Of a stretch of DNA of 64,000 bases, positions 1,502 to 4,500 are shown piece by piece. The translations under genes were made by a program, and so were the position numbers. This stretch comes from Callorhinchus milii. Taxonomy: Eukaryota. How positions within the stretch are numbered: position 1 is the first letter of the stretch; the number at the start of each line of letters is the position of its first letter. Below the pieces are notes generated by a model. That model searched no databases and was not told where the DNA came from. It saw nothing but the letters and a program-made list of their open reading frames with translations. The stretch is from contig NW_024704742.1 of NCBI RefSeq assembly GCF_018977255.1, positions 108,750,001-108,814,000 on the forward strand. The letters are read 5' to 3'.

Positions 1502-4500
1502 GTATGTGTTACTTCTTAAAGTAACGAATAAGGCAAGACAGATGATTTATTCCAACAGTTAATATAATCATTGATTTGATATAGTGGCTTATGACACCAT
1601 TGAAACATTTCAGAGTGCTTCACAGGGTGTACTGCAAAATGTAATGACTGTGCAATATGCAGTAGACCAAGGTGGTCCAACCTTTTTGCTGTCGCAGGCC
1701 AGATACCTTATTTCAGAAAGGTCCGCAGGCTGATTCCAGCGAGGGCCAGCTGGCAGCACCCAAGCCACATAGAAGCAGGAGTAAGCTATTCAGCTCCTCA
1801 AACCTGTTCCGCCATTTTATAAGATCATGGCTGATCTGTACCTCAAGTCCAGTTACCCACCCTTGCCCATATCCCTTAATACCCTGACCTACCAAATATT
1901 TATCAACCTCAGTCTTGAAAATGTGAATGGATCCAGCATCCACAGTCTTTTGGAGGAGAGAGATACAGATTTCCACTACCCTTTGGCTGAAAAACCGTCT
2001 CCTAATTTCACTCCTACATGGTCCAGCTCTAATTTTAAGATAATGCCCCCTTGTTCTGGATTCCCCTACCAGAGGAAATAGCTTCTCGGTATCTACCCTA
2101 TTGAATCCGTTTATTATTTTATAAACCTCAATAAGATTTTTTTTTAAAAAAGTAGATTTATTCTAGAAGACATTTTAAAATGACTCAAGTTTACAGTCTA
2201 ACTAATTACCAAGTCGAATATTCACACAAGAAATAAGGGACATTGTATGAAAAGGGAAATTTGAACCAGCAAGTTTATAAAAAAAAGCCATACAAAGAAT
2301 TTACACAAATAGCAACAATTCTATGCAGGGATAATTCCAAAAATCAGTGATTTAATACTGCCCTATAGCTTGCCAGTCAAGGAAAGAAAACAAAAATTGG
2401 ACTTGCTAAAGTACAATCAATAGGAACTTCAGTATAAGATTGCAGAACTTTCATTTTTAACTTTACCCCTCTCTATTTTCTTTAGGCTCATAGCACTATT
2501 TTCTACAAAAAGCCTGGTATAGGTTTCTATTCAGTGGTTTATGTTAAACATACATAACTATTTTACTGTAAGCCAGTTTCGTAAGTAGCTATCATGACAG
2601 ACCTCACCCAAGAAGCTATATTGATCAATGGCTGGCAGCAAAATCTTGTACATCACTTCCAATGTTTAAATAATAATAACAATAATCCTTGCATTTGATA
2701 TGCATTTGGTATCTGCATATTTGCATCCACTCTAAGACACTACCCTGATTGGAGGGCTTTATATAAGTGTAAGTTGTTGTTGATATAAGTGTTAACTGCC
2801 CCAACATTTGCCTGACAAGTGAACTGTAAACTGTCAGTTTCAACACGTGGAGATGGTTACATTGATTCCCAGATTGCCATTTTCTGCAAACTTTGTGCAA
2901 TGCTAGTGTCAAAGACTAGACAGTCACTATTCATAATTGCTGTGGCAATACCCACATGAATGGATCAAGGAGTTGCTTCCCAGGTCAGTCGCCGTCTGTG
3001 CCCATTGAATTCAAGTCGATGAGAAAAGTTTTCAGCTTGCTTGCGTGTTACAATTAGCTGTACTTTGGCAAAGAACTGTTGATGGCCATCATATTTTCCC
3101 TGTTTTTCTAAGAGCAACATAAAGTGGAAGCTAAAACTTGATGGCATCATAACCCGATCTGAAGCACCTGTGAGGTTAATGTCTGTTGCCATAAAGACTA
3201 TGTCCTCACCCTGCAAGGTCATCATCGACTTATGTTGATGCATAAGGTGTGGCGTTACAGCATCAAGAGAACCCTGCCATTTACATGAACCACCAGGGCA
3301 AAGACACGAGTATGGCCTGAACTCACAAAGTTGCTCGTGGTCCGCTTTCTCAGTGTGCGGTAGTGTGATTTCACAACCTGAAGAGAAATATTTACCCGGG
3401 AACAGTACAAAGTTGACCACTTTTTCCATAGCTAAATTACGAATGGAGCCCAATGGGCCCCTACAAGTGGAAGAACATGTCAGCTTAGTGCCACAATTGC
3501 TGCAGACGAGATGGCCGCTCTGACATTGAAGAATTGGTGGCAGTACATAGTCAATGCACATTAGATATTCACACAGACTGGCCAAGTCACTGTTGGAGGC
3601 TGTTGTTCTCGTCATTGCAGTGACTCTGTGAGAGGCTGTGCCCTCTGCTATACGTACAGTGACGACTCATTTCTGCACAAAAATGCAAACTACAAGCGAA
3701 GTGTTTGTGTGCGTGTTTGTGTTATTTTTTTAAAAAATGATCACAAATATGTGTGATGTGTCTTTCTCCCATTAACTCTCTTGCCTGAGGTGGAGAAAGT
3801 TGGTGGGACGGGAGAGCGAGTGTGCGCATGCCTTGGCCTCGGCCTCCCTCCCCTCTCCCTCACCCGCTTTAGTGTCTGGAGGAAACAACCACCAGCACTC
3901 GAGCCGCCAGCTCCAGACCATTCCCAACATTCCAACTTCCGGGGGGGAGTGGGGGTTGGGGGGAGAGTGGGCAGAGGGGGGAAGAGGGGGAAGGGAGGGG
4001 TGAGAGGGGGAAGAGGGAGGCTGAGAGAGGGGGAGAGGGGTTGCGGAGGGGGCAGATAGGAGCAGAGTGGGGGGAAGACATGAGCTACGGTGGCAGCAAT
4101 CACTATCTGCGAAATGTGCTTGCCTTCCTCACAAACTGCATTATTTTCACACTCTGCACTGTGTCCTCCCAACCGTCAGCTCCTACCACTGCCATGGAAG
4201 GATGTTCACCAGGGAGAGAAGGAGTGGATGTTGGAAATGGTCTCAACCCAGATAAAATCTGCGTAGACAATTTGTGCACAACAATGTCCCACGAACAGCT
4301 ATGAAGTGAATGACCAATTATATCTGAGGGATTGCTGGCCAAGTCACCAGGAGAAACTCCCTTCTCATTTGATTAGCGCCTTGGGATCTCTAACATCCAT
4401 CTGAAAAGGCAAACGGTTCCTAGGTTTAACATCTCATCCAAAGGTAAATCACCTCCAACAACGCAGAGCATCCGGCTTTACAGAGCAGTCCCAATGCTGC

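What the first reader, a model, noticed from the sequence alone, without database searches (positions are those of the whole stretch)
1765..3940. SIAH1 retrocopy fused head-to-tail to a CR1 3' end: candidate CR1-driven template-switch chimera
Seen in the sequence: on the minus strand the order is GC-rich leader, SIAH1 CDS remnant (3670..2840), about 700 nt of 3'UTR, AATAAA (2162..2157), A9 (2145..2137), then with no spacer a 5'-truncated CR1 (2136..1765) in the same orientation. I find no CR1 continuation on the far side of SIAH1. Established: CR1 and L2 reverse transcriptases recognise their own 3' tails and mobilise poly(A) mRNAs poorly, unlike L1, and no L1 is evident in this window. Inference: CR1 began reverse transcription on its own RNA and jumped onto the poly(A) tail of a SIAH1 mRNA, which would be a route to retrogenes in an L1-poor genome.
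Basis: partly seen in the sequence, partly recalled or inferred. Interest (0 to 1): 0.72.

Follow-up and report, generated by a model that had tools for sequence, protein, structure and literature searches.

The report
SIAH1 retrocopy fused to CR1 tail
A dead, likely spliced copy of the SIAH1 messenger RNA sits with no gap in front of the tail of a CR1 jumping element in an elephant-shark intron, likely because the element's copying enzyme jumped from its own RNA onto the host message, a probable example of a known but little-studied way to make gene copies in genomes that lack active LINE-1.

Summary
The anatomy is real. Minus strand: decayed SIAH1 CDS (3670-2840), 3'UTR, AATAAA, T6A9, then with no spacer a co-oriented CR1 3' end (2136-1767). 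The ORF matches a Callorhinchus milii entry at 100%. Parent-like contigs from 4 of 4 laid runs are about 90% identical. Parent DNA stops matching 5 nt before the coding exon and at 2151, so the copy looks spliced and the parent shows no adjacent CR1. No CR1 5' half lies upstream. The two parts are of similar age. Corrections: the GC-rich leader drew no parent match at 3756-3849. The A9 is not a clean poly(A): the same T6A7 recurs at 3737-3725 (1 of 806 control zones), which could be a SIAH1-only target-site duplication. Best reading: one CR1 insertion with a template jump onto SIAH1 mRNA (0.62); two stacked insertions 0.2. The kind is known: U6-L2 chimeras in platypus, and 6 of 21 young chicken retrocopies lie next to a CR1 in a published supplement. 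This scan noted similar chimeras on other DNA (7SK-CR1, ZFYVE1-CR1-like; unchecked), none like this locus. One dead copy; modest interest.

The parts
1767..2136 (-). 5'-truncated CR1 3' end: last ~90 codons of ORF2, 3'UTR with a terminal stem-loop, tail
   Evidence: blastn to copies at 23335-23638 and 63601-63960, alignment, tblastn, protein hits, fold. Clade name CR1 rests on a recalled ORF2 signature.
2137..2151 (-). T6A9 junction tract between SIAH1 and CR1: poly(A) remnant, target-derived bases, or both
   Evidence: sequence; parent match ends at 2151; 13-nt exact repeat at 3737-3725
2157..2162 (-). AATAAA polyadenylation signal inside the parent-matching part
   Evidence: parent RNA-like contig aligned across it and ends 6 letters beyond 2151
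2152..2839 (-). SIAH1 3'UTR copy
   Evidence: parent contig X9 record 29: 40 differences over 2151-2670; 2331-2264 also matches the UTR of vertebrate locus L001 at 76%, E 4e-7
2671..2789 (.). later 119-nt insertion made of two retroposon tails in opposite orientation
   Evidence: joint 2670>2790 in parent contigs of 4 of 4 runs; tail matches elsewhere in the window
2840..3670 (-). SIAH1 coding remnant with frameshifts near both ends, a premature stop at 2967-2965 and lost RING cysteines
3673..3692 (-). likely 3' end of a spliced upstream (5'UTR) exon; may extend to 3724
   Evidence: 6 of 7 codons match the N-terminal extension of shark protein P0153, best of 45 extensions; RNA-like contig matches to 3683 while parent DNA contigs stop at 3677 with 203 and 543 letters unaligned
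3693..3697 (-). 5-nt direct repeat, also at 1765-1761: candidate target-site duplication of the whole SIAH1+CR1 unit
   Evidence: 68 of 2000 shuffles reach it in zone 3684-3760; 1236 of 2000 in the wider zone to 3940
3725..3737 (-). T6A7, exact repeat of 2151-2139: candidate SIAH1-only target-site duplication, or flank that templated the junction
   Evidence: 3 such tracts in 64 kb; 1 of 806 and 1 of 241 control zones reach 13 nt
3893..3905 (-). 13-mer with 11 of 13 matches to 1766-1754: weak third candidate duplication
   Evidence: 49 of 300 shuffles reach it
1502..6125 (+). host intron of a proprotein convertase gene, antisense to the insert

Best explanation
A decayed, likely spliced SIAH1 mRNA copy is joined without a spacer to a CR1 3' end, and both were likely written in one CR1 target-primed reverse transcription in which the enzyme copied about 370 nt of its own RNA and then jumped to the 3' end of a SIAH1 mRNA. 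Shown: order, orientation, zero spacer, loss of parent match at both edges, similar age, no upstream CR1 half. Inferred: the single event and the jump. After the jump the enzyme would have copied the UTR, the whole CDS and 20-50 nt of the upstream exon before joining the target. The T6A9 bridge is either a U-rich end plus poly(A) remnant, or bases copied from the T6A7 in the neighbouring flank during an aborted 5' joining step, as described for L2-type LINEs. The copy was probably dead on arrival and later took a 119-nt insertion.
For: Parent DNA contigs in 2 of 2 DNA-like runs stop at 3677 with 203 and 543 letters unaligned, an RNA-like contig goes on to 3683, the orthologous acceptor lies 2 nt before ATG in L001, and the 7 codons before ATG match a shark extension 6 of 7: spliced. 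Parent pieces in X1 and X9 stop at 2151 and do not enter CR1 (the X1 end is inferred from the from_end column). No CR1 5' half upstream. No A-run follows the CR1 tail, so CR1 did not split a poly(A) tail with a duplication. Divergence: 133 differences in 1414 nt from the parent (9.4%) against 15-30 lineage-specific changes in 289 CR1 columns (5-10%). Chance of a co-oriented CR1 5' end within 2-10 nt of a given point: 3.5e-4 to 1.8e-3. A 5-nt repeat brackets the whole unit (68 of 2000 shuffles), the size reported for ZfL2-1/CR1-1_DR (PMC4245944). Precedent: 40 U6-L2/Mon-1 chimeras in platypus (PMC4476161); 6 of 21 chicken retrocopies next to a CR1 (PMC5131818 Table S8).
Against: T6A7 recurs exactly at 3737-3725 (1 of 806 control zones) and the parent match ends where T6 begins, which is what a SIAH1-only target-site duplication would look like. 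The 5-nt repeat is weak and not significant in the wider zone (1236 of 2000). The X9 contig has 19 letters upstream of 3683 that did not align, so its upstream exon is not shown to be the one in the copy. The exon origin of the P0153 extension is inferred from a predicted protein; a back-translation test of it gave only 2 of 60 and 4 of 60 shuffles reaching the score. No contig bridging the 2137 junction was listed. The age match uses three CR1 copies, not a subfamily consensus.
Confidence: 0.62

Rival explanations
1. Two separate insertions: SIAH1 mRNA was retroposed on its own into a T6A7 site, which was duplicated, by a poly(A)-tolerant enzyme (an old L1/Tx1, Nimb or Penelope-like element), and a CR1 landed at, or already ended at, the edge of that duplication.
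For: Exact 13-nt T6A7 repeat flanking SIAH1 alone, 3 such tracts in 64 kb, 1 of 806 control zones. Parent match ends at the first T. 13 nt fits the 12-15 bp duplications of Nimb-2 and L1, not the ~5 bp of ZfL2-1 (PMC4245944). L1 fragments exist in Chondrichthyes (PMC5203782, one passage).
Against: Needs a CR1 5' end to coincide with the duplication edge (3.5e-4 to 1.8e-3), in the same orientation and at similar age. No A-rich duplication after the CR1 tail. If the copy ran to 3724, the 19 unaligned letters of the X9 contig should have aligned.
Confidence: 0.2
2. The fusion was made at RNA level before reverse transcription: either a SIAH1 mRNA end was ligated to a CR1 RNA fragment, or a since-lost parent allele carried a CR1 just behind the poly(A) signal and its read-through transcript was copied through the CR1 tail.
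For: Gives the same single-insertion anatomy. RNA ligation is reported for U6/L1 (PMC11838501, passages). An earlier scan note describes SINE-tailed WEE2 retrocopies in this genome (e1-8038773, unchecked).
Against: Today's parent contigs do not enter a CR1. CDS depth in both DNA-like runs is the sum of two contigs (13.9 = 7.99 + 5.9; 15.7 = 8.17 + 7.5), so no family of copies is seen, unlike a tail-bearing master. A poly(A) end lacks the cyclic phosphate used in the U6 route (recalled).
Confidence: 0.13
3. A DNA-level duplication of the parent's single coding exon, with its splice acceptor and a neighbouring CR1.
For: A pyrimidine-rich tract ending in AG precedes the coding exon position, and SIAH1's CDS is one exon in L001, so intron loss inside the CDS cannot be tested.
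Against: Parent DNA contigs stop matching 5 nt into that tract, with 203 and 543 letters unaligned, and stop at 2151 at the other end.
Confidence: 0.05

Closest known systems
LINE template-switch chimeric retrocopies: U6/L1, U6-L2 and U6-Mon-1 in platypus, U6 with L1, L2 and RTE in Anolis (PMC4476161, passages)
   Same: Cellular RNA copy 5', co-oriented and directly fused to a short LINE 3' end; short or no target-site duplication for the stringent clades.
   Different: Here the passenger is a protein-coding mRNA of about 1.4 kb with a whole CDS, and the LINE is CR1; that paper had one tentative U6-CR1 case (turkey) that it could not resolve.
Chicken retrocopies with a flanking CR1 (Tan et al. 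2016, PMC5131818, Supplemental Table 8, parts 5-6 read)
   Same: mRNA retrocopies directly next to CR1, no poly(A) or TSD listed, classed as non-LTR mediated; 6 of 21 chicken rows.
   Different: Those are mostly internal fragments (3' truncation 19-8204 nt); this copy reaches the poly(A) signal and holds the full CDS. The table's side label (5') could not be interpreted because its note was cut, and the main text does not discuss CR1.
mRNA/LINE-1 chimeras in human (PMC11838501, passages)
   Same: mRNA sequence fused 5' of a LINE within one insertion.
   Different: Those are mostly first exons on near full-length L1, suggested to arise by trans-splicing; here the mRNA's 3' end meets a 370-nt CR1 tail.
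Ordinary processed pseudogenes made by L1 in trans (PMC5470649, PMC3747384, passages)
   Same: Spliced, 5'-truncated, ends near the poly(A) signal, decays neutrally.
   Different: An L1-type copy ends in poly(A) plus a duplication and needs no LINE tail; this reading survives only as rival 1.

Membership tests
Processed pseudogene (retrocopy) | Intron of the parent missing | tested here: met
   Parent DNA diverges 5 nt upstream of the coding exon in 2 of 2 DNA-like runs, RNA-like contig matches further; shark extension match 6 of 7. Indirect: parent letters were not shown.
Processed pseudogene (retrocopy) | 3' end at the parent's poly(A) site | tested here: inconclusive
   Match ends at 2151, 6 nt after AATAAA; RNA-like contig has 6 more letters. 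Contigs cannot show an RNA end.
Processed pseudogene (retrocopy) | Disabled, diverged from an expressed parent elsewhere | tested here: met
   Stop, frameshifts, 84% protein identity; second, ~90% identical sequence in 4 of 4 runs
LINE template-switch chimera | Cellular RNA copy 5' of and co-oriented with a LINE 3' end, no spacer | tested here: met
LINE template-switch chimera | One target-site duplication around both parts | tested here: inconclusive
   5-nt repeat 68 of 2000 shuffles; 13-mer 49 of 300; a stronger T6A7 repeat brackets SIAH1 alone
LINE template-switch chimera | LINE part absent from the parent locus and not a split element | tested here: met
   Parent pieces stop at 2151; no CR1 half upstream
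LINE template-switch chimera | Both parts of the same age | tested here: met
   9.4% against 5-10%; rough, three CR1 copies only
LINE template-switch chimera | Both parts gained together in relatives | not testable with these tools
   No chimaera genomes are held
CR1 clade LINE 3' end | ORF2 C-terminus, terminal stem-loop and short-repeat tail | tested here: inconclusive
   ORF match 55% over 95 aa to the window's long RT element; a hairpin with the same four-base loop closes both copies but z = 0.06 and -0.14; no hit named the clade, the CR1 label is recalled

The most novel reading that the evidence does not exclude
CR1 captures whole polyadenylated host mRNAs by jumping onto their 3' ends, and this is a main route to full-CDS retrocopies in L1-poor, CR1-rich genomes such as chimaeras, sharks and birds; this locus would be a complete example, with a junction that records an aborted 5' joining step on the flank before the jump.
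Probability: 0.3. Interest if true: 0.65.

Novelty: new member of a known kind. Interest (0 to 1): 0.36.

Why it matters
Reviews state that CR1's strict recognition of its own tail explains the scarcity of retrogenes in CR1-dominated genomes (PMC5470649; PMC3136929). A full coding sequence riding on a CR1 tail shows a way round that limit and gives a simple signature to count genome-wide. One dead copy does not show how common the route is, and the locus has no sign of function.

Tried and rejected
No whole genome was held, so no genome-wide scan and no direct parent-locus alignment. No RNA holder listed for the stretch; not evidence either way. A left terminal repeat for the hAT-like end at 1668-1687 was not found (best other match 15 of 20), so a nested-MITE boundary could not be used. 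The 13-mer at 3905-3893 was dropped as a duplication (49 of 300 shuffles). A homolog search with residues 50-105 of P0153 returned nothing at E<=1, not even the query. The back-translation test for leader homology was borderline and low-complexity. The guess that 3906-4260 is L2 debris was not supported beyond weak or low-complexity hits. L001's 3' end is not conserved with the copy past 2264 (153 of 200 and 44 of 200 shuffles), so it does not tell whether T6 is parental. The CR1 terminal hairpin is no more stable than shuffles. Earlier-findings look-ups near the locus and by sequence were empty. Of 7 runs that hold the stretch or part of it and 17 added ones, 4 were laid.

Full report
What is there. 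On the minus strand of an intron of a proprotein convertase gene (intron 1502-6125; S8 pro-domain and subtilase exons; the name PCSK1 is recalled) lie a SIAH1 coding remnant (3670-2840), a 3'UTR, AATAAA (2162-2157), T6A9 (2151-2137) and, with no spacer, 370 nt of a CR1-type 3' end (2136-1767). The open stretch 3666-2968 carries three Sina domains and is 100% identical over 91% of its length to a UniRef entry of Callorhinchus milii, which looks like a gene model built on this pseudogene. Against a shark SIAH1 it has 208 of 249 identical residues, a premature stop, frameshifts at both ends and lost RING cysteines. It is a dead copy.

Parent evidence. No genome was held, so 4 of 24 listed runs were laid on 1500-4300 at 80% likeness (all are contigs, two guessed RNA, two of unstated kind that behave as DNA). 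All 4 hold a second sequence about 90% identical. The longest piece (X9, 1473 letters) aligns 2151-2670 and 2790-3683 with 40 and 93 differences, leaving 6 letters at the 3' side and 19 at the 5' side. All 4 skip 2671-2789, so that 119 nt is a later insertion in the copy. The DNA-like pieces stop at 3677 with 203 and 543 letters unaligned. The X1 piece at the other end stops at 2151 by the from_end column. The loose-end and joint tables were cut, so the unaligned letters were not seen.

Is it spliced? The tract before ATG looks like a splice acceptor, which first suggested a DNA copy. A vertebrate SIAH1 locus (L001, 1 of 80 loci) has its acceptor 2 nt before ATG. But the parent DNA matches only 5 nt into the tract, the X9 piece matches 10 of 11, and the 7 codons before ATG match the extension of a bamboo-shark predicted protein at 6 of 7, against at most 3 of 7 for the other 44 extensions. 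The simplest reading is an upstream exon spliced to the coding exon. Against it: the 19 further X9 letters did not align, and the exon origin of the shark extension is inferred.

The leader. Bin 3756-3849 has depth 0 in both RNA-like runs and almost only the locus's own contig in the other two. A cover gap in contigs is weak evidence, but the parent is covered almost everywhere else. A back-translation test for homology to the shark extension was borderline (2 of 60 and 4 of 60 shuffles).

The CR1. It matches copies at 23335-23638 and 63601-63960, and both alignments begin at 2137, one A being shared with the element's own sequence. No CR1 piece lies between 2137 and 8425. No A-run follows its tail. 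In a three-way comparison 15 of 289 columns are unique to it and 15 more differ in all three, or 5-10%, against 133 of 1414 (9.4%) for SIAH1. With 9-11 CR1 pieces in 64 kb, a co-oriented 5' end within 2-10 nt of a fixed point has a chance of 3.5e-4 to 1.8e-3.

Three candidate duplications. (a) A 5-nt repeat at 3697-3693 and 1765-1761 brackets the whole unit: 68 of 2000 shuffles in the zone 3684-3760, 1236 of 2000 in the zone to 3940. It sits where the shark match begins and has the size reported for ZfL2-1, also called CR1-1_DR (PMC4245944). (b) T6A7 at 3737-3725 repeats 2151-2139 exactly and brackets SIAH1 alone; 3 such tracts exist in the window and 1 of 806 control zones reaches 13 nt. This is the strongest result against the simple model. 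(c) An 11-of-13 match at 3905-3893 and 1766-1754 is chance-level (49 of 300).

Mechanism. A two-insertion history explains (b) but needs a one-in-a-thousand coincidence of position plus matching age. A single insertion explains the adjacency and either leaves (b) as a coincidence of about 1% or explains it as bases copied from the flank: extra nucleotides at 5' junctions of zebrafish L2-type LINEs are often templated from flanking DNA (PMC4760211, PMC4245944). I put the single event with a template jump at 0.62, two insertions at 0.2, RNA-level fusion at 0.13 and DNA duplication at 0.05. These are judgements, not computed posteriors.

What is known. Template-switch chimeras are reported for L1, L2 and RTE with U6, with one unresolved U6-CR1 case (PMC4476161). 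CR1 is described as limiting which RNAs can hitch-hike (PMC5470649, PMC3136929). L1 in Chondrichthyes is present only as fragments (PMC5203782), and L2, CR1 and SINEs dominate the elephant shark (PMC5381603). Table S8 of PMC5131818 lists 21 chicken retrocopies: 6 next to a CR1, 4 next to an LTR element, 11 uncertain; the side label could not be interpreted. This raises the prior for the route and lowers its novelty. Searches found no paper on this locus or on mRNA-CR1 template-switch chimeras as such; subscription papers such as Suh 2015 and Ichiyanagi and Okada 2008 were seen only as citations.

What I saw of each paper: passages of PMC5470649, PMC4494074, PMC5499810, PMC4476161, PMC11838501, PMC3747384, PMC5203782 (42, one passage), PMC5381603, PMC13343379, PMC2104539, PMC4760211, PMC3136929; parts 2 and 3 of 5 of PMC4245944; passages (57, 72) and supplement file 9, parts 5-6 and searches of PMC5131818, whose file 1 could not be searched. 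Supplements of the other papers were not opened and may list further cases.

Earlier scan notes (unchecked leads): a 7SK-CR1 chimera, an 18S-L2 chimera, SINE-tailed WEE2 copies, a UFD1 copy lying near an unrelated CR1, and Penelope-like ends with 14-15 bp duplications in this genome; a ZFYVE1-CR1-like chimera in another. None resembles this locus by sequence.

Verdict. Real retrocopy, real zero-gap fusion, most likely one CR1 event; a new member of a known kind. Interest 0.36.

Noticed in passing
window 2671-2789: The later insertion is two different retroposon tails back to back in opposite orientation with about 30 nt between them; possibly one inverted insertion.
   Followed up: partly
window 3716-3757: Two short palindromes, one centred on the T6A7 (32 nt, 81%) and one of 18 nt, at the likely 5' edge of the insertion.
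   Followed up: no
window 1660-1766: GC-rich flank ending in what resembles a hAT-type terminal repeat (recalled); no partner end found in the window.
   Followed up: partly
window 3915-3930 and 4228-4243: Inverted repeat, 15 of 16 complementary, 297 nt apart, around a C-rich low-complexity tract.
   Followed up: no
window 2968-4128: UniRef entry A0A4W3K9P9 is a 273-aa model that joins upstream low-complexity frames to the pseudogene and ends at its premature stop; likely a spurious annotation.
   Followed up: partly
window 19084-20711: Broken minus-strand ORFs that resemble a Penelope-like RT and GIY-YIG endonuclease (recalled motifs); one piece drew no Pfam hit.
   Followed up: no
window 61400-63960: A 2.5-kb CR1-like element with RT domain and intact tail, of a different subfamily from the one fused to SIAH1.
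   Followed up: partly
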